Below the pieces are notes generated by a model that was not told where the DNA came from, ran no database searches, and worked only from the letters and a program-made list of their open reading frames with translations. From NCBI GenBank assembly GCA_000004985.1, contig GG738903.1: a stretch of DNA of 64,000 nucleotides. One strand, 5' to 3'. The stretch's first letter is position 1. The number at the start of each line of letters is the position of its first letter. Positions 655 to 64,000 of the stretch are shown in pieces. The position numbers were made by a program, and so were the translations under genes. This DNA comes from Naegleria gruberi. Taxonomy: Eukaryota.

Positions 655-1755
655 TTACACTTTATTTGGGTCAATTGTTTCGTTTGTTTCGTCTTTTTCC
701 ACCACAATTTCTGAAACTACCTTAGTAGAAACATTTGCTTTCACATCCCTTTCCTCAATCTCAATCTTATTCATTGATTTCCTTTTTACAATATTTGCCA
801 ATTGATGTCCAAATTCAGAAACATTATCCAGTGGTCCAAAAGAAAAGTTTACAACAATACAAAAAATGAAAATTGATGATCTGTGAATTAAAATTGAAAT
901 TACACTGAGTGGCATGACAGCACTAGCAACTCCGGCAGTAATGACACCCACTGCATTCATCATAGACATTATAACTTGACCAAAGTTCAGAATTAGCAAG
1001 TTTCGGCAGACTTTCCTTTTTTGGTCGGTTATGACACTTTGATTTTGACCAAGTAGCTTTCTAATCAACAAGACGGTGATTGTAAAGTTGAGAATTGACA
1101 AATAAAAGAATGCTGCAGATATTACACTTCCAAGAGTTGGATGAAATATTTTTGTAAACTGTTGTATAGTAAGAACTTGACTCAAGCTCAGAATTTTCCT
1201 TCCCGGATCAATAAAAGTCAATAATGATGAGATAAACGCATAGGGCATGCTCAAAATCAACAGCAAATTGAAAAATGCAACAATTCCAATCGTTGAAATA
1301 AGCACCACTTTCTTACCAATCGAATGAAGTTTCGAATTTCTCATCCAAGTTTGATTTTCATTAAAATACACTGCATAAAGTACTTTCGTTATAACAGCCT
1401 GACAATCCAAACATAATGTCAAGCTCAATAAATATCCAGCAAACTCAAATCCAAGAAAAGTTCCGGTCAACCCAAGTGGACCAACAAGCAGAGCTGAAGT
1501 ATACCCAATTAAACCACATAATTGATAAATCTGCTGATTTAAACAGGTAAATATCAAGAGTAGGTACATTAATCTCTTGTTTTTCACCATTTTCTTCCAT
1601 TTATAGATTAGTAGAATCGTCATGGAAAGTAGAAGAAACAAGAAGAATAAAGCTCCGAGAGAATTGAGAGTAATGATGGAAATAAAGGTGCCAAGATAAT
1701 CTGATTTGGCTGTAGGTGAGGCAGATGTTGTAGAGTTGGTCAATGTCGAGTTCAT
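655..1755 (-). CDS. Seven-transmembrane receptor-like protein, paralog A of a local three-gene family (366 aa)
   Basis: True ATG at 1755..1753. Seven hydrophobic segments. N-terminal 'MNSTLTNSTT' ectodomain with N-glycosylation sequons. Motifs shared with the paralogs at 1904..2961 and 5437..6834: 'GTFLGFEFAGYLLSLTL..C(Q)A(I/V)ITKVL..VYF(N/H)(E/Q)SQ(T/S)WMR' and the C-terminal 'NFSFGPLDxVSExGxQLANxVKR(K/R)S'. Confidence 0.7.
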   Translation of the reverse strand: MNSTLTNSTTSASPTAKSDYLGTFISIITLNSLGALFFLFLLLSMTILLIYKWKKMVKNKRLMYLLLIFTCLNQQIYQLCGLIGYTSALLVGPLGLTGTFLGFEFAGYLLSLTLCLDCQAVITKVLYAVYFNENQTWMRNSKLHSIGKKVVLISTIGIVAFFNLLLILSMPYAFISSLLTFIDPGRKILSLSQVLTIQQFTKIFHPTLGSVISAAFFYLSILNFTITVLLIRKLLGQNQSVITDQKRKVCRNLLILNFGQVIMSMMNAVGVITAGVASAVMPLSVISILIHRSSIFIFCIVVNFSFGPLDNVSEFGHQLANIVKRKSMNKIEIEERDVKANVSTKVVSEIVVEKDETNETIDPNKV

Positions 1756-1903
1756 TCTTTTTTTTTGATGTCTTGAAATGTCAAACTGTCAAGAGATAAT
1801 TTAGAGACGAATCTAAAAACAAATTGGGAGAGACATTGTCATTTTCAGTTTTTCATTAGTTTTCATTCAATTTTCGCGAAATAGATACATATTTGTAGAA
1901 ATC

Positions 1904-2961
1904 TTAAACTTTATTTTCTGATTCCTTATTCGAAAGCTCTGCCTCCTTATCCTTAATATGAACATCAGTCTTAATAGAAAGAGATCTCCTCTTCACAACA
2001 TTTGCCAACTGCTCACCCAATTCTGAAACATCATCCAATGGTCCAAAAGAAAAGTTTACAAAAATACAAAAAAGGAAAATCGAAATTCTATGAGAAGCCA
2101 ATCCAATCACAAATAAAACAAGAGGAATTACAGTAGCCACTCCCATTATTATAATTCCAATGATATTGAGCAGTGCCATTAACACTTGTCCAATGCTTAA
2201 AATTATTAACTTTCTGCAACATTTCCTTTTTTGGTCAGTTATGATACTTTGACAAAGATAGAGTTTTCTGATTAGTGAAATTGAGAGAGAAAGATTAAGC
2301 ACGCAAAAATATAGGAAGGAAAGTGAAATGAGAGCTCCCAAAACTGGATGGAAAATTCCAGTAAATTGGCGAAGTGAGCTACTTTGAGATGGAGTGAGAA
2401 TATCAACTTTGACAATTATGGAAAATATAAAGGCGAAGGGGATGCTTAGTACTAATTGTAAATTAAAGATTGTTACTATGAAATACTTGTAAACTTTACA
2501 AAATTTCTAAATATGGAATTTTCTTTTGAATTTCTCATCCATGTTTGTGATTCATTAAAATATACTCCAAAAAGAACTTTAGTAATAATCGCCTGACAAT
2601 TCAATAATAATGTCAAGCTCAATAAATATCCAGCAAACTCAAATCCAAGAAAAGTTCCATTCAACTGAGGCGGACCTTTCAAGAATGAAGTTAAATATCC
2701 AACCAATCCACAAGTTTGATAAACAAACTGATTCAAACATGTAATTATCAACGCTATCGACATGATTCTCTTATTTTTAACCATTCCTTTCCATTGAACT
2801 ATCAAGAGAATGGTCATGAAAAGAACAAGAATGAAAAAGAGAAAACTTCCCACAGAATTCAAAGTAATGAGAGATATTACTTGGGCATTGTTAGTGGATG
2901 AAACTGTAGAGTTTTCTGTTGTGTTGGTAATGTTTGATATAATCGTCGAGTTGAATATCAT
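1904..2961 (-). CDS. Seven-transmembrane receptor-like protein, paralog B. It is disrupted by a single -1 frameshift near 2504-2507, which is either a homopolymer error or a pseudogene.
   Basis: ORF 2476..3021 gives the N-terminal half (real ATG 2961..2959, 'MIFNSTIISN...WMRNSKENSIF'). ORF 1904..2341 extended upstream to the TAG near 2503 gives 'KFCKVYKYFIVTIFNLQLVLSIPFAF...FSFGPLDDVSELGEQLANVVKRRS'. This aligns residue-for-residue with paralog A ('LHSIGKKVVLISTIGIVAFFNLLLILSMPYAF'). One missing T in the plus-strand run at 2504-2506 joins the two frames. Confidence 0.55.
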
Positions 2962-3334
2962 CTTGTTTTTTTTTATATTTGAGTTTCGTATCTCTTTTGG
3001 ATTCAATTGACCTATATACAAATATCTCTAATTGGTTGAATATCAACAACAAGCGTGATCTTTCTTTACATGCAATGATGGAGTTGTTCTGTAATTCTAA
3101 ATATCTTGTTCGGTCAATTTGTCAACCTGTCATATTAAATTATCTCTTTAAATCATAAACAATTTAATCTTTTCAAATAGTTTTACATTCGGTATTAAAG
3201 TTTTCAATTCTTTCAATTCAACCTTACTTTCGGCCACAATCTCAATCGAAGCAAATGTTTTAATTGTCTTGGCCAATTCAATGCCCAACTCTGAAACATT
3301 ATCCAGAGGTCAATTGGGTGTGATGCCAATAGAT

Positions 3335-4912
3335 TTACTTGGCTCTTGAATTTCTCAAAGTTGTTAAGAAAATACCAAATGTCTGAAGAAATGATTCTAG
3401 TTTGACAGTCAGATTATCTCCATTAATAGCTTTCATATCCATGTTTGTCCATAGTGTATATTCATTCCCTTTCCATCTAGAATACTGTTCAAATGATCTC
3501 ATACTTCGTGTCTTGTAAGTTTTCCAAATTTCCAATAGTCCTGAAGTTCCATCTGGAAGAAACAAACTATTTGTCAATCCAAGATCATGATAACCAATAA
3601 GAAAATCAGCTTGATGAACTCGTTTCACTTGCTCTACAAATGAAAACTTATTGAGATCAATTCGTTCTAAAGTAAAGGTATAACCATACTCTGGATGCTT
3701 TTTCAAATTGATTAAAACTTCATCTTCGTTTGTGATTTTTCCCGAGCTCACAAAAAGTCCTCTAATCATTTCATCTGATGATGAGAAAGAAGGTCTTCTC
3801 TTTTCTATTCCTAGAGTGCTTAGAATTCTATCTGAAAAGGCAGTTACGAGTCTAACTTTGGATTTGCATTGGCTTGGATCAAACTCTGAAAAATCTAACA
3901 AATTGGATTTGAGTTGAGTGGCCACTCCAGCATGTTGAAAGATGGCTCTTTCAAATCGAACTGTTTTTTCCTTGAAATAGGAAGCTTTTCTAGCAGGTCT
4001 CTTCAAGGAGAAGGTAGAATTCCACAAAAAGTCATATGGAGATTCGTAATGTTCATCCAACAATACAATTTGAACATTCTTACTATCCAATTTGAACATT
4101 TCAATCATTTGAAAAGTTGCAAAGAAATCTGACAAGGCATGAAACAAATTGGCGTGATCATCTTGTTCTCTAGTAACGAAAATAGTCACTCCATCAATGT
4201 ATTCAACCTTATCCTTCTTTTCCTTAAAATTTTCTTCCTTAAATGTTTTGAAACTTGAGAAAATTTCCTTTCCAAAGTGTTTTGAAAATTGAGAAAGATC
4301 CAAATTCACTGGATTTCTCTTACACTTGCCAAGAAGAGCTCCTGCCAAGTATGTGTAATAGGTTTTCCTTTTACAATTATAACCAGGTCTGTACTTTAAA
4401 CATGGCACTCGTTTCAATTTTGAAAAATCCATCACCAAATTACTTGATTCACAAACAGTGTGTGGAAATGTATCCGAATCAACATGTTTGTTATTGTTCT
4501 TGTAACATGTGAGAGTGGCTTGATTAGTTTCCATCTCCTTCTTCTTTTCCAAATCAATAAGACCAGAACTTGGAATGACATAATCGTCCTTTTCACACAT
4601 TTCAATAGCTTGTTGCTTCCATGTTTGCAAAAGACCACATCCATACTCTCTTTCACACAATTCCTTCTGCTTTTCTTCTTCAGATAGGTTAACACTTGAT
4701 GGTAGATTGTTCATTGAGATTGGTTTAGTACATATGAGTGGTGGAATCCTAGAAGGACGAAACTTTTCATCATCTGTTGAAACATCTTTCAAAGATGATG
4801 TTTCCTTAGAGTTTGTCGTTTCAATAGTTACTGAAAATTGCTCTCTCCTAGTTCCCTTCCCAACAGCAGTATTCACCAAACCAATAGTACGAGCATTCTC
4901 ATGGATATTCAT
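3335..4912 (-). CDS. Glycosyltransferase family 61-like protein (EOGT / DUF563-type), 525 aa
   Basis: ATG at 4912..4910. The C-terminal motif 'ADFLIGYHDLGLTNSLFLPDGTSGLLEIW' resembles the conserved GT61 motif (VGMHGAGLTHLLFLPDWAxVFEL). No signal peptide is obvious. The family assignment is by motif only. Confidence 0.5.
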   Translation of the reverse strand: MNIHENARTIGLVNTAVGKGTRREQFSVTIETTNSKETSSLKDVSTDDEKFRPSRIPPLICTKPISMNNLPSSVNLSEEEKQKELCEREYGCGLLQTWKQQAIEMCEKDDYVIPSSGLIDLEKKKEMETNQATLTCYKNNNKHVDSDTFPHTVCESSNLVMDFSKLKRVPCLKYRPGYNCKRKTYYTYLAGALLGKCKRNPVNLDLSQFSKHFGKEIFSSFKTFKEENFKEKKDKVEYIDGVTIFVTREQDDHANLFHALSDFFATFQMIEMFKLDSKNVQIVLLDEHYESPYDFLWNSTFSLKRPARKASYFKEKTVRFERAIFQHAGVATQLKSNLLDFSEFDPSQCKSKVRLVTAFSDRILSTLGIEKRRPSFSSSDEMIRGLFVSSGKITNEDEVLINLKKHPEYGYTFTLERIDLNKFSFVEQVKRVHQADFLIGYHDLGLTNSLFLPDGTSGLLEIWKTYKTRSMRSFEQYSRWKGNEYTLWTNMDMKAINGDNLTVKLESFLQTFGIFLTTLRNSRAK

Positions 4913-5436
4913 GGATGGAAGTTCTTCATGTTGTTCTTCTTGAAGAGTAGTAGTAGTAAGTAAATCCCCTCTACTCTACTCCATATATTATCCTCCGCAC
5001 TAGAATCCACGAAAATATAATAAACACCAAGCATATAACAAGATAAACCTTAATCAATCGTTTGATCTTGACTAAATTAAACAAACTCTTATTCATGATT
5101 GCTGCTAATTACACTAATATAACAAGTTACTCCTTCTTAATGTACAATGTGTGAGATTTAGCAATGAAATGCTCGCTTAGATGTTGTTGATTTTTTTTTC
5201 ATTGAGTAAAATAATCAACGCTCTCTCACGCTTAATTTGGCAACTGGTTGAATGACCCTAAAAGAATCTTTTTACCGACCCTTAGTTACTTGCTGAGAAC
5301 ATTGTTCGTGGAGCTGAGATTGGCGAGTATTAAGGCGCAACAACATTCATGTGGAAAGCTGATTGTGAGATTGCCAGTCAATGAGTTTTAAAGAGTGATG
5401 GTCCTGTTCTGGGTGTTGTTGATTGTTGTTGGGTTA

Positions 5437-6834
5437 TTAATCATTGAGAGGAATATCAACAAAGATATCTTCATATTGTATATTATCGATTTTCGTCGTA
5501 GTAGTTTGATGATGATCAGTAGCAGTACTCATAGTGGTATTACTGTCATTACTTTTCTTACTGTCATTACAATTGGTTGGAGCACGCAACTGATCAGTTG
5601 CAATCGCCTCCTGAGGCCCAAAGGAGCTAGTAATGTTGAAGGGTGAGTAAATGGGCTGCTTGTTTGTTGCTGTATACTTGATCATCATCATGGAAGATAT
5701 TTCGCTGGCTTTTCTAAATGCCTTTGAATCAATATTGAAAGAGTTTGAAGTTTTTTGATTGGTGAGTTGAATTTCACTGGTTTGACATGAGGATTGAGTA
5801 TTATCCCCATGTGGCTTCTTCTTACCTTCCAATTTTAATTCATAATGAAAGTAATCCATAGGTCCAAAACTGAAACTCACACAAATGGCAAATAACAGAA
5901 ACACAAATCTATGAATGACACCAGTCAATATGAACAAGTATGGATACCATATACCAATAGCTCCCAAAATAATTGAGATTGAATTAATAATTGCCATGTA
6001 GAATTGACCAAATGTTAAGAGTACCAACTTTTTACATGCATTTCTGCGAGGGATTGGGACTGGCCTGTTTTGGAGAAGGTATCTTGAGAGTAGAAGAACC
6101 AAAGTTAAATTTAACACTCCTGTAATGATGGCACATCCAGAGTTTACAAGACCAACAATGGCCACAGAAATAATTGACCAAATGCCAAGAATACTTCCAA
6201 CTCGTGTATTTCCTCCATCCATATAATATACCATTGAACAGATCAGAGTGAATGGAACGAGAATAATGAATGCAATAGTCCAAATTAATGTCATTCCAAT
6301 TGTGTAATATTTTGTAAATATTCTAAACTTTTCATTGAATGAATAGCTTTCTGCTCCCTTCCTCATCCATGAATGAGATTGATGAAAGTAAATTCCATAC
6401 AATACTTTTGAAACCATTGCTTGAAAATAGGTACACATTACAACAGTTGACACGAGTCCACAATAATAAATAACGAAAAATAATTGACTCAAAAATTCCT
6501 GAATATGAGTCAGTGCTCCAACATCGTGAGCTATTCCAACTCCCTGTGAGAGAATTTGCAAGATGGCTGTAAATATTAAGGAAATGTAAAAGAATCTCTT
6601 GAAGGGAATCATTTCCTTCCATCGTTTGATGAGGAGAGTGGTCATTATAATGGTCAGTATCAGATAACTCAGTATTCCAATTCCATGAGTAGTAACAGAA
6701 ATGTAGTATCGTTCTATTGCAGAAGTAAAAGTTGATGATGAAATATTGTATTGATGGAAAACTATTCCTGGATTCAATGAGCCATGCTGATGCTGGTCAA
6801 CAATAGAAACAGTCATCTCACGATTATTATTCAT
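5437..6834 (-). CDS. Seven-transmembrane receptor-like protein, paralog C (465 aa) with an extended S/T/N-rich C-terminal tail
   Basis: ATG at 6834..6832. Seven hydrophobic segments. It shares the family motifs ('AMVSKVLYGIYFHQSHSWMRK', 'VSFSFGPMDYF'). The tail is long and low-complexity. Confidence 0.7.
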   Translation of the reverse strand: MNNNREMTVSIVDQHQHGSLNPGIVFHQYNISSSTFTSAIERYYISVTTHGIGILSYLILTIIMTTLLIKRWKEMIPFKRFFYISLIFTAILQILSQGVGIAHDVGALTHIQEFLSQLFFVIYYCGLVSTVVMCTYFQAMVSKVLYGIYFHQSHSWMRKGAESYSFNEKFRIFTKYYTIGMTLIWTIAFIILVPFTLICSMVYYMDGGNTRVGSILGIWSIISVAIVGLVNSGCAIITGVLNLTLVLLLSRYLLQNRPVPIPRRNACKKLVLLTFGQFYMAIINSISIILGAIGIWYPYLFILTGVIHRFVFLLFAICVSFSFGPMDYFHYELKLEGKKKPHGDNTQSSCQTSEIQLTNQKTSNSFNIDSKAFRKASEISSMMMIKYTATNKQPIYSPFNITSSFGPQEAIATDQLRAPTNCNDSKKSNDSNTTMSTATDHHQTTTTKIDNIQYEDIFVDIPLND

Positions 6835-6976: not shown

Positions 6977-8914
6977 TTAATCACTGAAAGAACCTTCTTC
7001 ATCAGAAATGGTAGCTTCTTGATTTTCTTCATTTTGAGATGTTGGTGATTGAGCATCTGAGTTATCCTCACGAATGATATCGTTCCATGTATGTTCCTCC
7101 TCTTCTTCACTTGAAGAGTCAACACTGCTCAATTCCATTCCATCATCAACATAATCCTCATCATTACGATCATTCTCCTCTGTCATTTCCTCATCCGAAT
7201 CCATTCCCATTTCTCGCATTAATATTCTTCTCTGAATGTCAGCCAAAAATTGATTAGCTGTTTCAATTCTATTTCTCAATGAAGTCAGTTTCTCAACGAG
7301 TCCTGACATTTTCTCTTCATCAGTGTAGGTCATTTCAGAATCATATAAATGATGGGCGAAACTTTCTGAATCATCGAAATATCTACTAATATCATCAAGT
7401 GATTTGGAAATATCATATCGAAAAGGTTCACTTCCAAAATTACATTTTGCTTTCATATTCTTCCAAAATCCAAGTCCAAAACGCATATCTTCTTTGAGAG
7501 TATGGAGAATAACTGGAGAGGTTAAAAAGGTGCCATTCAATGTAAAGAATACAGCCTTGTGATGTGAAGAAAATCCACATCCCAACACATCTCCAACAAT
7601 AATTTCCTTTCCATCAGTGTTAACTTTGAATTTCGAGCTTCCTTCCTCAAGGAAAAATCCTGCATCATCAGTGTGAAAACCTGTTGATAAATCATCCCAC
7701 CCAACTTGTCTATTTCCCAAATATCTGTTATGCATAATACCAATAGAGTTTCTACCATCCTTTACCTTCTTCTTGGTGGCCATCATCTTCTTCCAGAATG
7801 AATTTCCAGAACTAGATGAAGTACTAGACAAGGGAGTAATCGGAGTTACTGGTTCAGGTTTCTCCAAGACAAAAGTTTCAACTTCGAAATAATAGATAGG
7901 AACTAAATACTCGAGAAGATAATTTGATGAAAGTTGTTTTTCTATTGTTGTTGTTGTTGAAGAGGATGATGATACCAATGTTGATATTGATGTTGTTAGT
8001 GGAGCAACTTGTATTGGTTCTACCAATGTTGTTGTTGATGAAGAAGCTTGAGGTTGAGCATCCACTTCAGTTGAAGAAATCTTCTTCTTTGGTGGCTTGT
8101 AAGGTAGATTAGGAATACGTTTGTCTGTTCTCAAGTTAATATCATAGGAAAAGGCACGAAACGTATCAGAATTTCCCTTACTATAGATTAACAAGTTTGT
8201 ATCTTTGGAATCCCTAGATATGAGATCTCTCAAATGAAATTCTCTATCGGTATCCTCGGAAGGAGTGATAAATGTTGTTGGGAAGTAATCGGGAATTATG
8301 TACAATAATCTTTTCAAAATATATACATCATCAGATAATAGCAATGACAATGATGAATCATCAGTAGGGAATGGTGATGACTTTTCATGAGGTCCATCAT
8401 CCTCTTCTTCTTCACTGCTCATTATTTGGCTCTGTTTTTCACTCTTCAATTTACACAAATATTTACAATTATTTACATAGGATGACAGAACGGAAGAATG
8501 TAATTTGCTTTCCTTCAGGACAATATCATACCAAATTGATGTCTTGTTGCTCATGTTTTTCCATTTGTTACAAACAAGCGGAATGGTCATGATTGCTTCT
8601 CTATATTCTACAAAGGGTAAAACGCAATGCTCAATTACATCATCCGTAATTAATCCAAAACTTCCATCATATTTGATGAGAGAAGATTCATCATTGTTAT
8701 TATTATTATTATCATTTTGTTGTTGGAGAGTGGTTAATGATGCTACTCCGGTCGTGATGTTGTTAATTTGTTGGTCATCATGAAATGATGAAAGCTTAAC
8801 GGACGGTTTGTCCCATTGTAGCTCATCTTCCATTTTTTTACTTTTTGATTTTTTATTAAAAATTAATTTTATTTTCAATTTAATTTGAGATTTCGTTTTT
8901 TGTTTTGTGATCAT
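6977..8914 (-). CDS. F-box-like / SPRY domain protein (FBXO45-like architecture) with poly-N and acidic low-complexity regions
   Basis: SPRY signature 'GWDDLSTGFHTDDAGFF...GDVLGCGF...FFTLNGTFL...NFGSEPFRYD'. The upstream 'ITDDVIEHCVLPFVEYREAIMTIPLVCNKWKNM' resembles an F-box. The C-terminal tail is acidic and serine-rich. There are two candidate ATGs, at 8914 and 8833 ('MEDELQWDK'). Confidence 0.6.
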   Translation of the reverse strand: MITKQKTKSQIKLKIKLIFNKKSKSKKMEDELQWDKPSVKLSSFHDDQQINNITTGVASLTTLQQQNDNNNNNNDESSLIKYDGSFGLITDDVIEHCVLPFVEYREAIMTIPLVCNKWKNMSNKTSIWYDIVLKESKLHSSVLSSYVNNCKYLCKLKSEKQSQIMSSEEEEDDGPHEKSSPFPTDDSSLSLLLSDDVYILKRLLYIIPDYFPTTFITPSEDTDREFHLRDLISRDSKDTNLLIYSKGNSDTFRAFSYDINLRTDKRIPNLPYKPPKKKISSTEVDAQPQASSSTTTLVEPIQVAPLTTSISTLVSSSSSTTTTIEKQLSSNYLLEYLVPIYYFEVETFVLEKPEPVTPITPLSSTSSSSGNSFWKKMMATKKKVKDGRNSIGIMHNRYLGNRQVGWDDLSTGFHTDDAGFFLEEGSSKFKVNTDGKEIIVGDVLGCGFSSHHKAVFFTLNGTFLTSPVILHTLKEDMRFGLGFWKNMKAKCNFGSEPFRYDISKSLDDISRYFDDSESFAHHLYDSEMTYTDEEKMSGLVEKLTSLRNRIETANQFLADIQRRILMREMGMDSDEEMTEENDRNDEDYVDDGMELSSVDSSSEEEEEHTWNDIIREDNSDAQSPTSQNEENQEATISDEEGSFSD

Positions 8915-23376: not shown

Positions 23377-26300
23377 TTAAAGTTCAAATCTTGCATTTGC
23401 TTTCATTCTTTGTTTGAGTTCGTTCACAATAGCAAATGATTTGTACTCATCTGTGAAAATAAACCTAGAGAAGGTATCACTCAAGTTCATAACAATTTGT
23501 TGATAGAGAGAATCAGCACATCCATTAATCATTCTTTGATAACCAACCCACATTACTTTGTTTTCTGTATTGTTTGCTTCTGCCTTCTTTTGTTCATCAA
23601 CCAATTTTACACTTGATTGACTAAAGTCAAGTTTGATTGGCTGGGCATTCATGGATTGCATTGGAATTGACTTTGTCTTTTTAGTATTCAACTCTCCATA
23701 CAGAATGCTTTCATAAACCTTATCCACAAATGGCTTGTCTTTACCTTGCTCGACAACCATCTTGAATAAGAGTAAGAATGAATTTCTTGAATGTGATGGA
23801 ATATTCACTTCCATAGTTGCTCCTAATTTGATGTAAACCTCGTAGGTGCTGACACAGTACGAGTAGAGATGTTTCAAGAACTCTTCAGAATCGTCCATCT
23901 TATTCTCCAAAGTATCCATAAAGAGCTTGATATCAACATACATGTAAAGATTTTCCAAAGACCATTCCTTTTTACAGAACTCCTCAAATAGAATAATACC
24001 TTCAGAGTCTGACATTACTTGAGAGAGTTCCTCATTTTCTAATTCCACTGCTTCTTCTTTCTTATTGTCATTAGGTTTTTCAGTTGTAATCTTCTTGTAG
24101 AAATTATAAAGTGAAACCAAGGAAACAAATCCACCAAATGCTAAAATATAAAATACAATATAGACAGTTTCAATGGCAAATCTGGCTGAGTCAAAGACAA
24201 GCCCAATTGTGAATTGTTTAGTGTCAGAGCTGGAGAATTTTCCATCAATACTGGCAAGACCTAACGCTTGAGAAACAATGAGGAAGATAAAGAATGCCAC
24301 AAAGAATATCATTTCCAAACGGTAGAACAGTGGAGTATCTCTTCTAACAAACCATTTCCATACTGTGTGTAATACTGTTGATATTTGAATTGTTTCCTTT
24401 CCTTTACCTGATGAAGTATCAGCACTAATTGGTTTAGTTTCTAATTTCTTTTGTCCTTTTCCTTCAGTAGTCGCTCCTTGATTTGTAAGTCTTGCAGAAA
24501 TTGAAGACTCCTTTGAATCGTCATCAAATTTGTAAGTCAAAATCATATCAGCAACGAAAATTAAAGCAACAATCAAGGCAAATGTCAAAATGACAACACA
24601 ATAGGATACAGAAACAATAGTAGTGTAGTCATTAGCACCAATAACTCCAGTATACTTGAGAACAAACCACAAAGTCCAATAGAGAATGTTAGCTACAGCA
24701 AACAAACATAAAATAGCATAATAGATTGGATTTGAGGTCAATCTCTTGAATGTTGTAATCTTCTTTGCATAATTTGCTAAAAGATTACCTTCCTTATTTC
24801 TCATCACATTCATTAAATTGTAAAGATGCTTCATGAATAAGTAACGAACCACTTGTAAGAGGAAGGCGAGAATGGCTGTTAAATTGAGAGTGTTGACAAT
24901 AATTGAAGCTATACCACCAAACCAATTGACTACATTAGTGACATCAGTTTCATAAGCTGCCGATTTCAATGTATTACTCAATAATTCATTAACAAGAATG
25001 GAATTTCTAATAATTGAAATCAAAACACATTCAGTCAACAGGGCAATCATACCCAAGTATGGAGCAACAAGTCTACTCTTAATAGGTTGCTTATTTTTAA
25101 ATATTGTGAGCAATACCAAAACAATAACAGCCACAATTCCATAAATTCCTCCAAAAACTATTTCAGCAATGTAATAACTGGCAACTTGTAATTTGTAGCT
25201 ACTATTAACAGCACTAGTCAAATTGAATTGCAAGAAAGTACCAAATCTTGTGGTATGGTCACACTTACAAACAACATCACCATTAACAAATGAAGAGACG
25301 TAACAACCATTTCCTAACCAAGCATTTTCGGTTTCATTCCAATATCTGCACTCCATTGTGGTATTGGTAATATTCTTATTTGATGTCAAGGTAGAAAGTG
25401 ATGTCTTGTCGAGAGAGAACGTCAAAGCAATAGGATTTTTGAGATTTCTCAATTCAACTTGACTGTCTGACATACTGAGTGTGAATTCCGTTAGAGGTGC
25501 AAGAATATAACTCTTCTTTGAGAAGGAATCAACCTTTGAGTTGATAGAGTAGGCTATGAATGATAAGCCAAAGGATCCAGTTGTTTCATTTGAAATTTGT
25601 TGGAAAATAGAATTCATATCCAAACTAACTTGATTAATACCAGTTGAAAGAGTTTGATTGGTAGTTGTTGGAGTTGACTTATCCAGAGAGAATGCAGAAA
25701 TTGTAATATTGACCATATCAGTTGCAAATGAAAGAGTTGGAACTGATCCAGTTGTAACCAATGTTGGAATTTCACCAATGAGAGCTGTATCAGCTGTACT
25801 TTCTGCAGTTGATTCCACCTTTTCAGAGTTTAGTCCAGTTTCCAATAAATTTGAAACAAGTTTTAGTGTTGAAAATGTGACAGTTGAATCCAAAATCTTT
25901 GTCTTGACAAATGAATACAATGCCTTTTCTTCTAAATATTGAGCTGTAACATTTGAAACGAAATTGGCTAACTTGGTGTTTACCTTGTCGACCATTTCAG
26001 AGCTCATCTTTGAAGGATCTGAAGTAATGGTAAGGAAAGAATCCAATGCACTTTGTGGATTCTTAATATCAAATTGAACATTGTCAATTAATTGATTCAA
26101 AACGGCTTGTGATTCATTGGTTGAAATTGATCGAGTAGAAATGGATGTATCATAAGAGTAAAGAACTGATTGCTCAGAAGAGCTAGCACTACTCAATAAA
26201 TTCAATAATTCCGAAACTGTTCCATTGTAAGGCGAAACTGTGACTGTTGAAGAATATGTCCACTCTTCATTACCATACTTATCGGCAACAAAGAGAATAA

Positions 26301-29300
26301 CAGTGACAGTCTCATCGTTGGTGCTTCTACTCTTCTTTGTTTGAGTCAAATAAGGAAGAATGGAACTGAAAGTGGAATTAGTAGTGTATGAAGTGATTCT
26401 GACAGGTTTTTGTTGTGTAGAATCATAAACACCTAAAGCATACGTGAGTGGTTTGAGAGAATCGGCAGCTGACCATTCCTGAACTGTGAAAACGAAATTT
26501 TCAATAAGTGCCATACCTTGAGTTGGCATTATAGTGACGAGTTTTGTTGTATTCTTTGGAGCTGATGCTGGTGGGATGATTGGATAAGTTGAGGTGATTG
26601 AAAAACTGGAATTACTGTCCTGATTTCTAAATTCCAAAATAATTTCCAAAATTGATTCTTCAGCAGTGTTCTGTGTGAGATTTGTAATTTGCGATTTGAA
26701 ATTGGAAACAGAATAGGAAAGATATGGAGAGCAAGTAAATCCATCAAGAGCAGAGTTTGGAACAATGGTTACATTTCCAGAAATGTCTAACATGTTAAGA
26801 GTTTGATTGAATCTAACGACAAGTGAGTATTCAACTTTCTTTGCTGCACAACCACCATTGTTACATCCCAAGAATCTTACCAAAGCACTTTGATTCAAAG
26901 AAACTGTCGGTACAACAATATCCAAACTAGTTGGTAAGGTATTGGTTGTGTAAGCTTCCTTCACACCAACAACAGATACAGAGTATGATTCTGGCACTTG
27001 AATAATGGTAATATTAAAACTAAATGTGTTTGATTGTCTGTAGAAGAAAACACCATCCTCTGAGGTTACAGCCATAGCCGACAATTCAAGATTGAAAGTT
27101 CCTGTTGGTAATACATAAACATTGAATAGGGCAATTGATTGAGTAATATTTGAAAGATAATCACTTCCATTATTTCCTTGACAATTAGTACATGTCCAAT
27201 TGTAAATCACATTTTCCAACAAGTATGGTTGTGGAAGAATCTCACCTAGAACAGCATGAAGTGACAAACTAGAAATATTGTTGTAGACACTATAACTCTC
27301 TACCGTGTAACCTCCAATTTTAAGTGAGACTGTAATTGGAGATTGTGTGATATTACAATTCTTACCAAACCATGGATAACTGCATTCACAAGTATTAGGA
27401 CTATTACAGATACCATTTTGTGAGCAAACATCCAAAGAAGTTGCATTCACACCAAAGCAAATTGGTGTTTGACAATTTTCTCCAGTGAAACCATTTGTGC
27501 ATTCGCAATTATTTGGCGATTTGCATTGACCATGTCCAGAACAAACATTCAATGTATCATTAAAGTACAAAGAATAGCATTGGTACAGAGTACATTCCTC
27601 TCCAAAGTAACCTTGTACTTGACAAGAGCAAGTATTTTCAGAATTACATTGACCTTTTCCATTACAAACTTGTGGATCGGTTGAATTCTTTCCGAAACAC
27701 GTTGAGAATTGACAATTATTACCAGAGTATGTTGAAGTACAATTACAGAAATCGACACCAATGCAGCTTCCTCTTTGGTTACAAACATTTGAAGAGTTGG
27801 CAAGAATATTTTCACACTTGAAGATTTCACAATTTGAACCGCCATATCCATAGCCACATGAACACAAATCAGTGTCAATACATTGACCAAAACCTGAACA
27901 AACTGATGGCATAGTTGAATTGATTCCGTAACAAATTGGGTATTGGCACTTGTCTCCAGTGTATCCTGTAACACAAGAACACTTATCAGGAGAAATACAT
28001 GAACCCTTTCCACTACAAATAAACTTGGAATCTTGTGAAGTATTATTTCCAAAGCAAGAAACATATTGACAGTTATTTCCACTATATCCTAAATTACATG
28101 AACAATTATTTGGTAAAATACATTTACCAAATCCAGAGCACACAGTATTATTGAGATAGTTCAATCCATAACAATTGTAATCTGTGCAATTCTTTCCATA
28201 GTAATTATAATCTGTACAGTAACAAACGTCTGGAGAAGTACAAATACCTTTTGCATTACATTGTGTTGGATCATCAAAGGTTCTATTATAACAAATTGGT
28301 TTGTTACATTGTCCACCAGACGAAAAACCAGATAGACATTGGCATGTATCTGGTGCAACGCAGCTACCATTATTGGAACAGACATTTGGATCTAGAGCCG
28401 AGAGTGAGTAACAAACTGGAATGTCACATCTGGAACCTGTGTATTGAGAGGTACAATTACATAAATTGGCACCAGTACAATTTCCCTGAGAGCTGCAATA
28501 TGCAACACCATCACATGAGTAGGCAGAACATTCTGCATTGCCTTTCCATCCAGTGTTGCACTGACAAGTATTATTGGAAATACACAAGCCATTTCCATGA
28601 CAGTTGTCAGAGGCATCACATGTGAAAGTATTACAATTTGAACCTGTCCAGCCAGATCTACATTGGCATGTGTTATTTCCAATACATTGACCATTTTGAG
28701 AACAAGAATTAACTCCGTCACAACTAATAACTGAACAATTGGAACTTCCTTTCCATCCACTTTGACATTGGCAAGTATTGTTTGAAATACATAAACCATG
28801 ATCGTAACAATTAAGCACACCATCGCATGTGAAAATGTCACATTTTGGTCCAGACCATCCAGATCTACATTGACATGTGTTATTTCCAATACATACTCCA
28901 TTTTGAGAACAGCCACTAACACCATCACATGAGAATTGGGAACATTCTGCATTGCCTTTCCAGCCACTATAACATTGGCAAGTGTTGTTGGAAATACACA
29001 AGCCATTACTGTTACAATTTGAAGAGGCATCACAAGTGAAAACATTGCAACTTGCTCCTGTCCAACCAGACCTACATTCGCATGTGTTATTTCCAATGCA
29101 TTGACCATTTTGAGAGCATGAATTAACACCATCACAAGTAATTGCCGAACAATTCGAGTTACCTTTCCATCCACTAACACAGTTGCATGTATTAGCGCCT
29201 GTACACGTACCATGTCCTGAGCAGAAATCTCTATCCTTACAAGTAAAAGTATTACAATTAGCTTCTGTCCATCCACTGTTACAATTACAAGTATTATTTG

Positions 29301-31509
29301 AAATACAAGTACCGTGTCCATTACAAGCTCCTAATGCATCACAACTGATTGCTGAACAATTTGCATTACCTTTCCATCCACTATCACAAGTGCATGTATT
29401 TGCGCCTGTACACGTACCATGTCCAGAACAGTAATTTCTTTGATCACAAGTGAAAACTGAACAATCGACAGCACCTCTCCAACCTGTTTTACAACTGCAA
29501 GTGTTATTCGAAACACAAGTACCCTTACTGGCACCTCCACAATTACTTAAGGCATCACAACTAATTGCTGAGCAATTTGCATTTCCTTTCCATCCACTTT
29601 CACAAGTGCATGTATTAGCACCTGTACACGTACCATGTCCTGAACAATAATTAGTTCCGTCACAAGTGAATTCAGAGCAGTTACTAGCTCCTCTCCATCC
29701 TGAATTACAGGTGCAGGTATTTGGACCGCTGCATATTCCGTGTCCATAACAACCTCCAACTAGCTCACAACTCACTGAATTACAACTTGTGTCTCCCTTC
29801 CAACCATCATTACATGAACAAGTATTTGCACCAACACATTCACCATGCCCAGAACAATAATTGCGCGAATCACACGAGAATATTGAGCAATTACTAGCTC
29901 CTCTCCATCCTGAATTACAGGTGCAGGTATTTGGGCTGCTGCATATTCCATGTCCATAACAACCTCCAACTAGCTCACAACTCACTGAATTACAACTTGT
30001 ATCTCCCTTCCAACCAGCATAACAAGAACAATTATTGGGTCCAATACAGTCACCATGAGATGAACAATAATTGCGCGAATCACACGAGAATATTGAGCAA
30101 TTGGCAGCTCCTCTCCAGCCAGTAACACAAGAGCATGTATTAGCAGAAGTACATGTTCCATGGTTTGAACAAACATTTGCTGTATCAGTTGCATTGTAAG
30201 AGTAACAAATTGGAATGTTGCACGAAATTCCAGTCCAATCAGTATTACATGAACAATATGTTTCTGAAGCACAAGAACCATGTCTTCTCCAACATTGTAG
30301 AGATGGCGAACACAATTCATAGGAACAATCAAGTCCTGTATAGTTGGTGGCAGTACAGTTACAACTGTTCGGAGCAATGCAATCTCCCTTATTGTAACAA
30401 ACATTTGGTGATGGATAATAGTAACCGTAGCAAATATTGTATTGGCATTCAGAACCAGTATAACCAGTATTGCAGGAACAAGTATTCGGTGAAGTACAGG
30501 TACCTCTCACAGATCCAGAGCAAGCATTTGCTGTATTATTGGAAGGTATTCCATAGCAAATTGGATATTGACATTTTGGCCCAGTGTATGTCGAATTACA
30601 TTGACATGTGTCAGTATCAATACAGTTACCATGCCCTGAACAAATAACTGATGAGATATTTTTAAAGGTACTCACTCCAAAACATATTGGAATTTCACAA
30701 TTATTTCCTGTGTAACCTTGTGGACATTGACATTGATTAGTAAAAACACAAGTTCCTCTTCCTGAACAAACAGTAGTATCATTTTGTAAAATTCCATTAC
30801 AAATAGTAACATTACAATCATTTCCAAACCAATTGGCTTTACAATTACAAGTATCCAAATCAGTACAATTACCATGTGAATTACAGACATTTGAGGCATT
30901 CTGAACTATTCCAAAGCATGAAGGAGTGCCACATTGAGTACCACTCCATCCATCATCACATTTACACACATTGGTATCGATACAATCTCCATTTCCTTTA
31001 CAAACAGAATTTGTTTCATTCTGTAATATTCCAAAACAGGAGGTAACATTACAATCAATTCCATACCAATTTGATGAGCATGAACAAGTATCAGTACCAG
31101 AACAAGTTCCATGCCCATTACATACAGCACTTGTTTCATTCTGTAATATTCCAAAACAGGAGGTGATTTGACATTGAGTGCCATACCAATCTGGATCACA
31201 TTCACAATTATCTTGTTCGGTACAGTTTCCTCTTCCGTTACAAACTTGGGTTGTGTTTGACAATTTTCCAAAGCAATAGATGAGTGTATTGTTGTTGGAT
31301 TCTTGTGCTTGTGTGAAAAGGAAACTCTCTTTAGTTTCGAATATTTGTTGTTGGTCTTGATGGAATAAAAACATCATGATGAAACAAGTTGACAAAATTG
31401 ATGCATATAAAATTATATTCATCAGAAAGGAATGATTACCCGGAGAAGATTGTTTCCTCCTTGTCATTCCAATACGAGAAAACCCATTATTATTATTGCT
31501 TCTCATCAT
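23377..31509 (-). CDS. Giant adhesion-GPCR-like receptor, 2710 aa. From N to C: signal/anchor, roughly 60 tenascin-type EGF-like repeats, an S/T-rich stalk, a GPS-like motif, 7TM, and a C-terminal RGS domain.
   Basis: Continuous 8.1 kb ORF. Repeats of the form C-x-C-xxG(W/Y)xGxxC. GPS-like 'CRYWNETENAWLGNGCYVSSFVNGDVVCKCDHTTRFGTFL'. Seven hydrophobic helices follow. The C-terminal RGS fold is 'ILFEEFCKKEWSLENLYMYVDIKLF...YEVYIKLGATMEVNIPS...'. Confidence 0.8.
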   Translation of the reverse strand: MMRSNNNNGFSRIGMTRRKQSSPGNHSFLMNIILYASILSTCFIMMFLFHQDQQQIFETKESFLFTQAQESNNNTLIYCFGKLSNTTQVCNGRGNCTEQDNCECDPDWYGTQCQITSCFGILQNETSAVCNGHGTCSGTDTCSCSSNWYGIDCNVTSCFGILQNETNSVCKGNGDCIDTNVCKCDDGWSGTQCGTPSCFGIVQNASNVCNSHGNCTDLDTCNCKANWFGNDCNVTICNGILQNDTTVCSGRGTCVFTNQCQCPQGYTGNNCEIPICFGVSTFKNISSVICSGHGNCIDTDTCQCNSTYTGPKCQYPICYGIPSNNTANACSGSVRGTCTSPNTCSCNTGYTGSECQYNICYGYYYPSPNVCYNKGDCIAPNSCNCTATNYTGLDCSYELCSPSLQCWRRHGSCASETYCSCNTDWTGISCNIPICYSYNATDTANVCSNHGTCTSANTCSCVTGWRGAANCSIFSCDSRNYCSSHGDCIGPNNCSCYAGWKGDTSCNSVSCELVGGCYGHGICSSPNTCTCNSGWRGASNCSIFSCDSRNYCSGHGECVGANTCSCNDGWKGDTSCNSVSCELVGGCYGHGICSGPNTCTCNSGWRGASNCSEFTCDGTNYCSGHGTCTGANTCTCESGWKGNANCSAISCDALSNCGGASKGTCVSNNTCSCKTGWRGAVDCSVFTCDQRNYCSGHGTCTGANTCTCDSGWKGNANCSAISCDALGACNGHGTCISNNTCNCNSGWTEANCNTFTCKDRDFCSGHGTCTGANTCNCVSGWKGNSNCSAITCDGVNSCSQNGQCIGNNTCECRSGWTGASCNVFTCDASSNCNSNGLCISNNTCQCYSGWKGNAECSQFSCDGVSGCSQNGVCIGNNTCQCRSGWSGPKCDIFTCDGVLNCYDHGLCISNNTCQCQSGWKGSSNCSVISCDGVNSCSQNGQCIGNNTCQCRSGWTGSNCNTFTCDASDNCHGNGLCISNNTCQCNTGWKGNAECSAYSCDGVAYCSSQGNCTGANLCNCTSQYTGSRCDIPVCYSLSALDPNVCSNNGSCVAPDTCQCLSGFSSGGQCNKPICYNRTFDDPTQCNAKGICTSPDVCYCTDYNYYGKNCTDYNCYGLNYLNNTVCSGFGKCILPNNCSCNLGYSGNNCQYVSCFGNNTSQDSKFICSGKGSCISPDKCSCVTGYTGDKCQYPICYGINSTMPSVCSGFGQCIDTDLCSCGYGYGGSNCEIFKCENILANSSNVCNQRGSCIGVDFCNCTSTYSGNNCQFSTCFGKNSTDPQVCNGKGQCNSENTCSCQVQGYFGEECTLYQCYSLYFNDTLNVCSGHGQCKSPNNCECTNGFTGENCQTPICFGVNATSLDVCSQNGICNSPNTCECSYPWFGKNCNITQSPITVSLKIGGYTVESYSVYNNISSLSLHAVLGEILPQPYLLENVIYNWTCTNCQGNNGSDYLSNITQSIALFNVYVLPTGTFNLELSAMAVTSEDGVFFYRQSNTFSFNITIIQVPESYSVSVVGVKEAYTTNTLPTSLDIVVPTVSLNQSALVRFLGCNNGGCAAKKVEYSLVVRFNQTLNMLDISGNVTIVPNSALDGFTCSPYLSYSVSNFKSQITNLTQNTAEESILEIILEFRNQDSNSSFSITSTYPIIPPASAPKNTTKLVTIMPTQGMALIENFVFTVQEWSAADSLKPLTYALGVYDSTQQKPVRITSYTTNSTFSSILPYLTQTKKSRSTNDETVTVILFVADKYGNEEWTYSSTVTVSPYNGTVSELLNLLSSASSSEQSVLYSYDTSISTRSISTNESQAVLNQLIDNVQFDIKNPQSALDSFLTITSDPSKMSSEMVDKVNTKLANFVSNVTAQYLEEKALYSFVKTKILDSTVTFSTLKLVSNLLETGLNSEKVESTAESTADTALIGEIPTLVTTGSVPTLSFATDMVNITISAFSLDKSTPTTTNQTLSTGINQVSLDMNSIFQQISNETTGSFGLSFIAYSINSKVDSFSKKSYILAPLTEFTLSMSDSQVELRNLKNPIALTFSLDKTSLSTLTSNKNITNTTMECRYWNETENAWLGNGCYVSSFVNGDVVCKCDHTTRFGTFLQFNLTSAVNSSYKLQVASYYIAEIVFGGIYGIVAVIVLVLLTIFKNKQPIKSRLVAPYLGMIALLTECVLISIIRNSILVNELLSNTLKSAAYETDVTNVVNWFGGIASIIVNTLNLTAILAFLLQVVRYLFMKHLYNLMNVMRNKEGNLLANYAKKITTFKRLTSNPIYYAILCLFAVANILYWTLWFVLKYTGVIGANDYTTIVSVSYCVVILTFALIVALIFVADMILTYKFDDDSKESSISARLTNQGATTEGKGQKKLETKPISADTSSGKGKETIQISTVLHTVWKWFVRRDTPLFYRLEMIFFVAFFIFLIVSQALGLASIDGKFSSSDTKQFTIGLVFDSARFAIETVYIVFYILAFGGFVSLVSLYNFYKKITTEKPNDNKKEEAVELENEELSQVMSDSEGIILFEEFCKKEWSLENLYMYVDIKLFMDTLENKMDDSEEFLKHLYSYCVSTYEVYIKLGATMEVNIPSHSRNSFLLLFKMVVEQGKDKPFVDKVYESILYGELNTKKTKSIPMQSMNAQPIKLDFSQSSVKLVDEQKKAEANNTENKVMWVGYQRMINGCADSLYQQIVMNLSDTFSRFIFTDEYKSFAIVNELKQRMKANARFEL

Positions 31510-63524: not shown

Positions 63525-64000
63525 TGGGCTAGGGTTTGAAGGTTGGGTTTAGAAGAATTCTATTTTTAGTTCTGGGTTTGGGTTTGGGTTTGGGTTTGGG
63601 TTGGGTTTGGGTTTGGGTTTGGGTTTGGGTTTGGGTTTGGGTTTGGGTTTGGGTTTGGGTTTGGGTTTGGGTTTGGGTTTGGGTTTGGGTTTGGGTTTGG
63701 GTTTGGGTTTGGGTTTGGGTTTGGGTTTGGGTTTGGGTTTGGGTTTGGGTTTGGGTTGGGTTTGGGTTTGGGTTTGGGTTTGGGTTTGGGTTTGGGTTTG
63801 GGTTTGGTTTTGGTTTTGGGTTTGGGTTTGGGTTTGGGTTTGGGTTTGGGTTTGGGTTTGGGTTTGGGTTTGGGTTTGGGTTTGGGTTTGGGTTTGGGTT
63901 TGGGTTTGGGTTCCGGTTTGGGTTTGGGTTTGGGTTTGGGTTTGGGTTCTGGGTTTGGGTTTGGGTTTGGGTTTGGGTTTGGGTTTGGGTTTGGGTTTGG
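63525..64000 (+). repeat. Telomere-type (GGGTTT)n array reaching the window end, with the G-rich strand on the plus strand. It has a degenerate proximal edge and occasional variant units.
   Basis: 'ttttgggctagggtttgaaggttgggtttag...ctgggtttgggttt' then more than 70 GGGTTT units. Sporadic variants occur: GGGTT, GGTTTT, GGGTTCC and GGGTTCT. Confidence 0.85.

What the first reader, a model, noticed from the sequence alone, without database searches (positions are those of the whole stretch)
655..6834. Tandem cluster of three paralogous 7TM receptor-like genes with a conserved C-terminal 'NFSFGPLD..VSE.G.QLAN.VKR(K/R)S' motif; the middle copy is frame-disrupted
Three minus-strand genes (655..1755, 1904..2961 and 5437..6834) encode related 7-pass membrane proteins with short N-glycosylated N-termini and shared internal motifs. 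I could not place them in a named GPCR family by eye, so they may be a lineage-specific receptor family. Copy B needs a single extra T in a TTT run at 2504-2506 to read through. That makes it either a very young pseudogene or a homopolymer sequencing error. A GT61/EOGT-like glycosyltransferase gene (3335..4912) lies between copies B and C.
Basis: partly seen in the sequence, partly recalled or inferred. Interest (0 to 1): 0.5.

Follow-up and report, generated by a model that had tools for sequence, protein, structure and literature searches.

The report
Orphan GPCR-fold receptor family in Naegleria
Three neighbouring genes near a chromosome end of the amoeba Naegleria gruberi belong to a small, unnamed family of seven-helix membrane proteins with the predicted fold of G-protein-coupled receptors. 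The family is known only from Naegleria and Willaertia, which makes its members candidates for the largely unidentified receptors of these amoebae.

Summary

No Pfam family matches. An exhaustive HMMER search of 1.84 billion representatives finds only 22 relatives. Every named one is from Naegleria or Willaertia and is called "hypothetical". Conservation is concentrated on the cytoplasmic face (37 of the 42 best-conserved columns), as expected for receptors that share a transducer. G-protein coupling is inferred, not shown.

A 97.9%-identical environmental contig reads TTTCCATAG where the window reads TTTCATAG. One base is therefore missing at 2480/2481, not in a homopolymer. B's dN/dS between strains is 0.04, so any inactivation is very recent or an assembly error. 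The reference gene models for A and C are truncated and B is unannotated.

The parts
655..1755 (-). Copy A: intact 366-aa 7TM protein. The N-terminus carries 2 N-x-S/T sequons. The tail reads NFSFGPLDNVSEFGHQLANIVKRKS and the protein ends ...PNKV.
1904..2961 (-). Copy B: 352-aa paralogue, 55-59% identical to A, interrupted by a -1 frameshift in this assembly. It has no NCBI protein model.
   Evidence: Two frames overlap at 2476-2506. The HMM aligns positions 2-134 in one frame and 126-289 in the other. Only a 91-aa environmental fragment is on record.
2480..2481 (-). Site of B's lesion. One C is missing on the coding strand (window TTTCATAG, environmental strain TTTCCATAG).
   Evidence: Alignment of L002 (97.9% identical, covering window 2492-1651) with the window. 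With the C restored, the frame reads ...FVKFTSISIVTIFNL....
3180..3309 (-). Non-coding relic of the C-terminal tail of a fourth family copy (PLDNVSELGIELAKTIK...). It starts 25 nt downstream of the GT61 stop codon.
   Evidence: tblastn with A and B gives 65% identity over 17 aa and 44% over 34 aa. Translation. The relic is also present in the environmental strain, where it carries its own 1-nt indel.
3335..4912 (-). Intervening GT61 (EOGT-like) glycosyltransferase gene. It is not part of the family.
   Evidence: PF04577, E 6.5e-15. 100% identical to a N. gruberi predicted protein. The Willaertia orthologue has no family member within 10 kb on either side.
4971..5096 (-). Short ORF encoding the signal-anchor N-terminus of GT61 (MNKSLFNLVKIKRLIKVYLVICLVFIIFSW...). 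In this assembly a frameshift separates it from the catalytic ORF.
   Evidence: The environmental contig L003 encodes a continuous 586-aa protein. The window differs by a complex indel, GGAGTA-GAGTAGAGGGG against GGAGGAGGAGT--AGGGG.
5437..6834 (-). Copy C: intact 465-aa divergent paralogue, about 30% identical to A and B. It has a long S/T-rich tail ending ...EDIFVDIPLND.
   Evidence: ORF and alignment. The NCBI model NAEGRDRAFT_73282 starts at an internal Met and lacks TM1 (402 aa). A full-length 469-aa orthologue exists in environmental contig L003.

Best explanation
A, B and C are tandem paralogues of an orphan family of seven-helix membrane proteins. The family is restricted to Naegleria and Willaertia and has the GPCR fold. 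A, B and C belong to a clade that has expanded in the N. gruberi lineage, and they sit in a subtelomeric region.

The most likely mode of action is that of a cell-surface receptor:
1. A short, glycosylatable N-terminus and the variable outer half of the helix bundle bind an extracellular cue.
2. The strongly conserved cytoplasmic face engages a shared transducer. This face comprises WKxMVxNKR after TM1, YFNxxQxWMR after TM3, LN...L.RKL in TM5, QRxxACR...GQ entering TM6, and FxFGPLD at the end of TM7.
3. That transducer is most plausibly one of the many Naegleria heterotrimeric G-alpha subunits.
4. S/T-rich tails could serve desensitisation.

Shown: paralogy, 7TM topology, predicted GPCR fold, restricted distribution, conservation biased to the cytoplasmic side, and purifying selection. 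Inferred: surface location, ligand binding and G-protein coupling.

Copy B in this assembly lacks one base at 2480/2481. This is either a very recent strain- or haplotype-specific null allele or an assembly error. It is not an old pseudogene.
For: - Paralogy.
- Topology: about 7 hydrophobic segments, with K/R-rich loops alternating so that the N-terminus is outside.
- Structure: AF2 with 22 sequences gives pLDDT 82 and pTM 0.76, seven TM helices, a short ICL2 helix and a C-terminal helix.
- Conservation: 37 of the 42 best-conserved columns lie in the cytoplasmic half or loops; the cytoplasmic side is more conserved than the outer side, Mann-Whitney p = 8.6e-7.
- Distribution: only 22 representatives among 1.84e9 proteins. 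All named ones are N. gruberi, N. fowleri, N. lovaniensis or Willaertia magna.
- One N. fowleri member carries UniRef's automatic name 'G-protein coupled receptors family 1 profile domain-containing protein'.
- Phylogeny: the NJ tree places A, B and C in a clade with only N. gruberi-type sequences.
- Purifying selection between strains: dN/dS is 0.04 for B, 0.27 for C and 0.18 for GT61.
- Context from the literature: N. fowleri has 13 G-alpha subunits, some with slow nucleotide exchange that presumably needs a GEF, yet only one cAR-like candidate GPCR. Other 7TM proteins 'with no significant similarity to known receptors' were reported there only as data not shown (PMC9283941).
- B lesion.
Against: - There is no experimental or expression evidence.
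- The fold is a prediction, and AF2 could be biased towards GPCR-like packing for any 7TM protein.
- No sequence-level link to any GPCR class holds up. There are no Pfam hits, even for the family consensus at E <= 10.
- The ADGRG2 match (E 1.8e-4) disappears with a trimmed profile and scores only 17% by hhalign.
- The class A DRY, CWxP and NPxxY motifs are absent from the alignment.
- Foldseek TM-scores are only 0.25-0.54.
- Several GPCR-fold proteins in other organisms are not G-protein coupled.
- The family is small (about 7 loci in N. gruberi and about 3 in N. fowleri), which is unlike large chemoreceptor repertoires.
Confidence: 0.5

Rival explanations
1. The proteins have a GPCR fold but do not couple to G proteins. 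They would act as sensors, scaffolds or trafficking and cargo-receptor proteins, signalling through kinases or arrestin-like proteins or not at all. GPCR-fold proteins of other lineages that work in membrane trafficking are the precedent.
For: - No class-defining G-protein-coupling motifs are present.
- Many members end in a C-terminal hydrophobic residue (-NKV, -ELKNV, -ENVV, -NRV). One clade shares a C-terminal EIF(T/V)(E/D)IPL motif. Both look like sorting or export signals.
- The family is small.
- Naegleria has largely moved 7TM sensing onto 7TM-RGS proteins. N. fowleri has 28 of them (PMC9283941), and one lies in this window.
Against: - The strongest conservation is exactly at ICL1, ICL2, ICL3 and the TM7 end, where GPCRs contact G proteins or arrestins.
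- Naegleria has many G-alpha subunits and few recognised GPCRs.
Confidence: 0.3
2. The proteins are not receptors at all. They would be a lineage-specific 7TM transporter, channel or lipid-handling protein whose predicted structure only superficially resembles GPCRs.
For: - Foldseek E-values are weak (>= 2e-3), TM-scores are 0.25-0.54, and a few microbial rhodopsin pumps (KR2, ErNaR) appear in the list.
- Sequence identity to any GPCR is only 5-12%.
- With the shallow-alignment model, unrelated helical bundles scored almost as well as GPCRs.
Against: - No transporter family is hit in Pfam.
- A conserved cytoplasmic face combined with a variable outer face is a receptor-like pattern.
Confidence: 0.12
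3. Sub-question on copy B: the frameshift is an error of the NEG-M Sanger assembly and B is an intact, functional gene in that strain.
For: - The orthologous site is in frame in an environmental strain.
- dN/dS is 0.04 over 196 codons.
- Apart from this single base, the ORF is complete.
Against: - The missing base lies in a CC dinucleotide, not a long homopolymer.
- Real indel polymorphism between these strains is frequent: 20 gap openings in 5.5 kb.
- The neighbouring GT61 gene carries a complex, clearly non-artefactual frame-breaking indel in the same assembly.
- One environmental haplotype carries a frameshift in A. Segregating null alleles in this cluster are therefore plausible.
Confidence: 0.4

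Closest known systems
Fungal class D pheromone receptor Ste2 (PDB 7AD3)
Class A (rhodopsin-like) GPCRs of the delta group, e.g. GPR55, P2Y1/4, PAR1/2, LPA6
   Different: There is no 7tm_1 Pfam hit at E <= 10. No conserved N1.50, D2.50, DRY, CWxP or NPxxY equivalents are visible in the family alignment. Identity is 6-12%.
Adhesion/secretin (class B) GPCRs, e.g. ADGRG2
   Same: This is the only sequence-level lead. The 22-sequence profile matched ADGRG2 from TM5 to TM7 at E 1.8e-4. The match is in register and aligns the invariant TM5 Asn, a QRK motif entering TM6, and a TM7 Gln with the class B LN, QRK and QG positions.
   Different: The match is not robust. It is lost with a trimmed profile, and hhalign gives 17% probability. 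There is no 7tm_2 Pfam hit, no GAIN/GPS region and no large ectodomain.
Naegleria 7TM-RGS proteins (e.g. window 52048-54099)
   Same: Same organism, same 7TM membrane-sensor concept and the same pathway context (PMC9283941). One is encoded about 45 kb away in the same subtelomeric window.
   Different: The family has no RGS domain and no large ectodomain. hhalign of the family profile against that protein's 7TM region gives 2% probability.
Tandemly arrayed, lineage-specific chemoreceptor families (vertebrate TAS2R, nematode Sr families)
   Different: The family is far smaller: about 7 loci in N. gruberi. Homology is not detectable; the only TAS2R Pfam hit is at E 0.66 in one member. No chemosensory role has been tested.

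Membership tests
GPCR-fold 7TM superfamily (structural) | Seven TM helices with the N-terminus outside and the C-terminus inside | tested here: met
   Hydropathy and positive-inside loop charges. AF2 helices at 14-51, 58-89, 94-130, 142-182, 191-236, 244-277 and 282-306, followed by a C-terminal helix. These are predictions only.
GPCR-fold 7TM superfamily (structural) | Helix packing superposable on solved GPCRs | tested here: met
GPCR (functional definition) | Ligand-dependent activation of a heterotrimeric G protein | not testable with these tools
   Requires biochemistry. The only support is indirect: a conserved cytoplasmic face and the excess of G-alpha subunits over known GPCRs in Naegleria (PMC9283941).
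Class A / rhodopsin (Pfam 7tm_1) | Significant match to the 7tm_1 profile | tested here: not met
   No hit for 22 members at E <= 1, nor for the family consensus and 5 members at E <= 10.
Class A / rhodopsin (Pfam 7tm_1) | Conserved DRY (TM3), CWxP (TM6) and NPxxY (TM7) motifs | tested here: not met
   The family alignment shows Q..ITK.LY..YF at the end of TM3, FGQ in TM6 and (Q/H)R..IF.F...V.F.FGPLD in TM7. None of the class A motifs is present.
Class B adhesion/secretin (Pfam 7tm_2) | Significant and reproducible profile match to class B 7TM domains | tested here: inconclusive
   ADGRG2 TM5-TM7 matched at E 1.8e-4 with profile A2. Profile A3 found nothing at E <= 10. hhalign probability is 17%. 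No 7tm_2 Pfam hit.
Class D (Ste2) / class E (Dicty_CAR) / Frizzled / class C | Match to the corresponding Pfam profiles | tested here: not met
   No such hits. Ste2 similarity is structural only, at 8% identity.
7TM-RGS proteins | C-terminal RGS domain and a homologous 7TM region | tested here: not met
   No RGS hit in A, B or C. hhalign against the 7TM region of the window's own 7TM-RGS protein gives 2% probability.
Glycosyltransferase family 61 (intervening gene 3335-4912) | Match to PF04577 above the gathering score | tested here: met
   56 bits against a cut-off of 27, E 6.5e-15. An orthologue exists in Willaertia magna at 41% identity.

The most novel reading that the evidence does not exclude
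This family is a previously unrecognised, Heterolobosea-specific class of true G-protein-coupled receptors. It would supply the missing exchange factors for the slow-exchanging G-alpha subunits of Naegleria. Three clades are conserved in the pathogen N. fowleri (FDP41_001027, FDP41_006273, FDP41_013725). A further clade is expanding, with copies being gained and lost, in N. gruberi subtelomeres, and would sense environmental or prey cues.
Probability: 0.35. Interest if true: 0.65.

Novelty: new variant of a known kind. Interest (0 to 1): 0.45.

Why it matters
Naegleria encodes an unusually rich G-protein machinery. N. fowleri has 13 G-alpha subunits, about 100 RGS proteins and 28 7TM-RGS proteins. 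Homology searches have nevertheless found essentially one cAR-like candidate GPCR (PMC9283941).

An orphan family with a confident GPCR-like predicted fold, conserved across N. gruberi, N. fowleri, N. lovaniensis and Willaertia, gives concrete candidates for the missing receptors. These candidates can be tested, and GPCR-like proteins are potentially druggable in N. fowleri.

There is also a practical point. Most N. gruberi reference models of this family are N-terminally truncated and one copy is unannotated. That helps explain why 7TM-based screens would have missed them.

In the wider picture this is a modest addition: one more lineage-specific 7TM family. It is not a new kind of system.

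Tried and rejected
1. Word-indexed homologue search with copy A found nothing. With the family alignment it found only 4 proteins. The exhaustive HMMER search was needed to find the family.
2. Pfam scans of all members and of the family consensus gave no 7TM family.
3. The link to adhesion GPCRs through ADGRG2 is kept only as a lead. It was not reproducible and was weak in hhalign.
4. Homology to the window's own 7TM-RGS protein is rejected.
5. A functional link between the GT61 gene and the receptors is rejected as unsupported. The Willaertia GT61 locus has no family member within +/-10 kb.
7. Independent sequence across the B lesion was sought in JGI metagenomes. The DNA pattern search and the protein-pattern search both found nothing, and alignment A3 was too divergent for the tool.
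8. The afdb50 fold library was unavailable.
9. Exact look-ups of N. gruberi proteins in the contig index failed. The left flank holding NAEGRDRAFT_73279 could therefore not be read. Its environmental orthologue contig L005 does not overlap the window.
10. Literature searches for the accession numbers and for the ENA project returned nothing.
Full report
**Origin of the window.** The ORF at 3335-4912(-) is 100% identical to a 'predicted protein [Naegleria gruberi]' on a 304,373-bp scaffold. The sequence has 33-35% GC and long ORFs with few apparent interruptions. It contains three N-gaps. It ends in 71.5 copies of a TGGGTT/TTTGGG hexamer at 63573-64000. The window is therefore a chromosome end of N. 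gruberi NEG-M, and the finding lies about 57-63 kb from the telomeric repeat, in a subtelomeric position.

**The observation.** ORFs A (655-1755, 366 aa) and C (5437-6834, 465 aa) are intact. B occupies 1904-2961 in two frames that overlap at 2476-2506.
- tblastn of A hits B at E 6e-95 (53-59% identity) and C at E 1.6e-32 (29%).
- A family HMM run on the six-frame translation finds only these three loci in the 64 kb.
- All three proteins have N-x-S/T sequons before the first hydrophobic segment and about seven hydrophobic segments. K/R-rich loops alternate in a way that places the N-terminus outside.
- The gene between B and C is a GT61 glycosyltransferase (PF04577, E 6.5e-15).

**What the proteins are.**
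- Pfam has no model for them, whether queried with individual members at E <= 1 or with the family consensus at E <= 10.
- A word-indexed search of 5.8 billion proteins with A found nothing.
- An exhaustive HMMER search of 1.84 billion cluster representatives, using a profile of A, B and C, found only 22 proteins.
- Every one that carries a name is a 'predicted' or 'hypothetical' protein of N. gruberi, N. fowleri, N. lovaniensis or Willaertia magna. The rest come from ENA, JGI or Logan environmental assemblies.
- AlphaFold2 with only the window's sequences gave a mediocre model (pLDDT 66). With the 22-row family alignment it gave pLDDT 82 and pTM 0.76. The TM helices are mostly above 90. The model has seven TM helices, a short helix in the second cytoplasmic loop, and a helix continuing from TM7.
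- Foldseek agreed on the kind of match but weakly (E >= 2e-3, TM-score 0.25-0.54).
- In summary, the fold is GPCR-like, and no class is singled out.

**Class assignment attempts.**
- A 22-sequence profile searched against all PDB sequences matched the adhesion GPCR ADGRG2 across TM5-TM7 at E 1.8e-4. The match was in register: the TM5 Asn, QRK before TM6, and the TM7 Gln all aligned.
- A trimmed 17-sequence core profile found nothing at E <= 10. hhalign gave 17% probability. I keep this only as a lead.
- The class A signature motifs are absent from the alignment.
- The 7TM region of the window's own 7TM-RGS protein is unrelated (2% probability).
- One N. fowleri member carries UniRef's rule-based name 'G-protein coupled receptors family 1 profile domain-containing protein'.

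**Anatomy of the family.** The invariant or near-invariant positions, in A numbering, are V57, K60, W137, N223, L230, Q260, F304 and P308. They sit in these motifs: WKxMVxNKR (ICL1), CQxxITKxLYxxYFNxxQxWMR (TM3 end and ICL2), LNxxLxxxLxRKL (TM5 end), QRxxACRxLxxLxxGQ (ICL3 and TM6), and (Q/H)RxxIFxFxxxVxFxFGPLD (TM7 end).

I projected column conservation onto the AF2 topology. Of the 42 best-conserved columns, 37 lie in the cytoplasmic halves of the helices or in cytoplasmic loops, and 5 lie on the outer side. Mean conservation is 0.56 inside against 0.46 outside (Mann-Whitney p = 8.6e-7). This pattern is expected for receptors that share an intracellular partner and differ in what they bind.

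The tails are S/T-rich. Many end in a hydrophobic residue (-NKV in A and B; -ELKNV, -ENVV and -NRV elsewhere). C and three other N. gruberi-type members (P0005/P0037, P0008/P0027 and P0013/P0031) share EIF(T/V)(E/D)IPL near the C-terminus.

**Evolution.** A neighbour-joining tree of the cores shows three clades with orthologues in N. fowleri or N. lovaniensis (P0018/P0035, P0007/P0028/P0014, P0006/P0033). The two Willaertia sequences lie outside these clades, nearest the P0006/P0033 pair. A further clade contains only N. gruberi-type sequences: A, B, C, P0004, 77904, 65787 and 73279. The window's genes therefore belong to an expansion in the N. gruberi lineage.

The cluster itself holds more than three copies.
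- Immediately downstream of the GT61 stop codon lies a relic of a family C-tail (PLDNVSELGIELAKTIK..., about 3309-3180). It is detectable by tblastn and visible on translation. It is also present in an environmental strain, with its own 1-nt indel, so it is not coding.
- NAEGRDRAFT_73279 (EFC39029) is on the same scaffold, and its accession directly precedes that of A (EFC39030). It probably lies just left of the window. I could not read that DNA.

The GT61 orthologue of Willaertia has no family member within 10 kb on either side. The adjacency of GT61 and the receptors is therefore not conserved, and I do not read it as functional.

**The frameshift in B.** One metagenome assembly (ENA ERZ929261) contains contigs 97-98% identical to the window.
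- L002 covers window 2492-1651. It reads TTTCCATAG where the window reads TTTCATAG on the coding strand.
- With that C restored, the upstream frame (...RNFVKFTSIS) runs straight into the downstream frame (IVTIFNLQLVLS...). This gives a 352-aa protein.
- The HMM likewise aligns the upstream frame right up to 2479.
- The lesion is therefore a missing base at + strand 2480/2481, about 24 nt from the proposed site, and it is not in a homopolymer.
- Over the 196 codons shared with L002, B shows 7 synonymous changes and 1 non-synonymous change (dN/dS 0.04). B has been under strong purifying selection for essentially all of the 1.4% divergence between the strains. If the deletion is real, it is very recent.

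Two observations argue against dismissing it as an error.
- The NEG-M GT61 gene next door carries a complex indel that cuts its signal-anchor exon-less N-terminus (4971-5096) off from the catalytic ORF. Contig L003 encodes a continuous 586-aa protein.
- A second environmental haplotype, L006, has a 1-nt deletion in the A orthologue at window position 1584.

Frame-breaking alleles therefore differ between strains in this cluster. Only read-level data can settle each case.

**Annotation.**
- The NCBI/JGI model for A is a 104-aa C-terminal fragment.
- The model for C starts at an internal Met and lacks TM1.
- B has no model.
- Models 77904, 65787 and 73279 are also N-terminally truncated relative to full-length environmental orthologues.
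- None of these accession numbers occurs in the searchable literature.

**Mechanism and context.** Bosch et al. (PMC9283941) report the following for N. fowleri:
- 13 G-alpha subunits, some of which exchange nucleotide slowly and presumably need a GEF;
- 28 7TM-RGS proteins;
- a single cAR-like candidate GPCR;

De Mendoza et al. (PMC3971589) note lineage-specific radiations of G-alpha subunits and RGS proteins in Naegleria and other heteroloboseans.

Against that background, the best-supported reading is that this family are surface receptors whose conserved cytoplasmic face couples to heterotrimeric G proteins (confidence about 0.5). The main rival is a GPCR-fold protein that signals or traffics without G proteins (about 0.3). 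A non-receptor membrane function is less likely (about 0.12). None of the functional steps has been tested.

**Verdict.** It needs a corrected lesion site and a wider cluster. The finding is a new, taxonomically restricted family within a well-known fold. It is useful for Naegleria signalling research and for re-annotation, but it is not a new kind of system. Interest 0.45.

Noticed in passing
window 63573-64000: There are 71.5 tandem copies of a TGGGTT (TTTGGG) hexamer running to the end of the window. This looks like a telomere, so the whole window is subtelomeric. Assembly gaps lie at 43813-43862, 54245-58238 and 59084-62871.
   Followed up: partly
window 4971-5096 (-) and 3335-4912 (-): In this assembly the GT61 gene is split by a complex indel near 4975-4990. 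A 41-codon ORF encoding a type-II signal anchor is out of frame with the catalytic ORF. The 97%-identical environmental contig L003 encodes one continuous 586-aa protein. The NCBI model (525 aa) lacks the anchor.
   Followed up: partly
window 3180-3309 (-): A decayed fragment of a family C-terminal tail (PLDNVSELGIELAKTIK...) starts 25 nt after the GT61 stop codon. It suggests a former fourth copy that was largely deleted or displaced when GT61 came to lie inside the array.
   Followed up: partly
L006 (ENA ERZ929261 contig), equivalent to window 1584: In one environmental haplotype the orthologue of copy A has a 1-nt deletion in an A5 run, which frameshifts it after TM1. L002 and L006 overlap but differ, so the sample holds at least two haplotypes or strains.
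   Followed up: partly
window 52048-54099 (+): A 683-aa protein has an N-terminal ectodomain of about 290 aa, a multi-pass TM region and a C-terminal RGS domain (PF00615). It is a member of the Naegleria 7TM-RGS class described by Bosch et al. 2022. It ends in -ENNNV, as many members of the 7TM family also end in V.
   Followed up: partly
window 35263-36840 (+); 44058-46151 (+); 23377-31509 (-): Further signalling-type genes lie nearby. One is an RGS-domain protein with the RGS domain at residues 52-209. One is a REJ-domain (polycystin-like) protein (PF02010, E 3e-47). There is also an unexamined 2710-aa ORF.
   Followed up: no
window 6977-8914 (-): The 645-aa ORF next to copy C gives weak F-box-like and SPRY hits, both below the Pfam cut-offs. 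It has acidic and serine-rich low-complexity tails.
   Followed up: no
NCBI models NAEGRDRAFT_73280, 73282, 73279, 77904, 65787: The reference gene models of this family are systematically N-terminally truncated: 104, 402, 207, 338 and 338 aa, against full lengths of 366-465 aa. They lack TM1 or more, so TM-count-based GPCR screens would miss them.
   Followed up: yes
L005 1917-2066 vs window 51736-51876: A 150-nt stretch downstream of the environmental 73279-like gene matches a window segment just upstream of the 7TM-RGS gene at 81% identity. It may be a dispersed repeat.
   Followed up: no
C-termini of family members (A 655-670, B 1904-1920, C 5437-5470): C-terminal motifs recur. Many members end in a terminal hydrophobic residue (-NKV, -ELKNV, -ENVV, -NRV). 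C and three other N. gruberi-type members (P0005/P0037, P0008/P0027 and P0013/P0031) share an EIF(T/V)(E/D)IPL motif. The P0018/P0035 clade has a Cys-rich stretch in the tail. These could be export, PDZ-type or palmitoylation signals.
   Followed up: no
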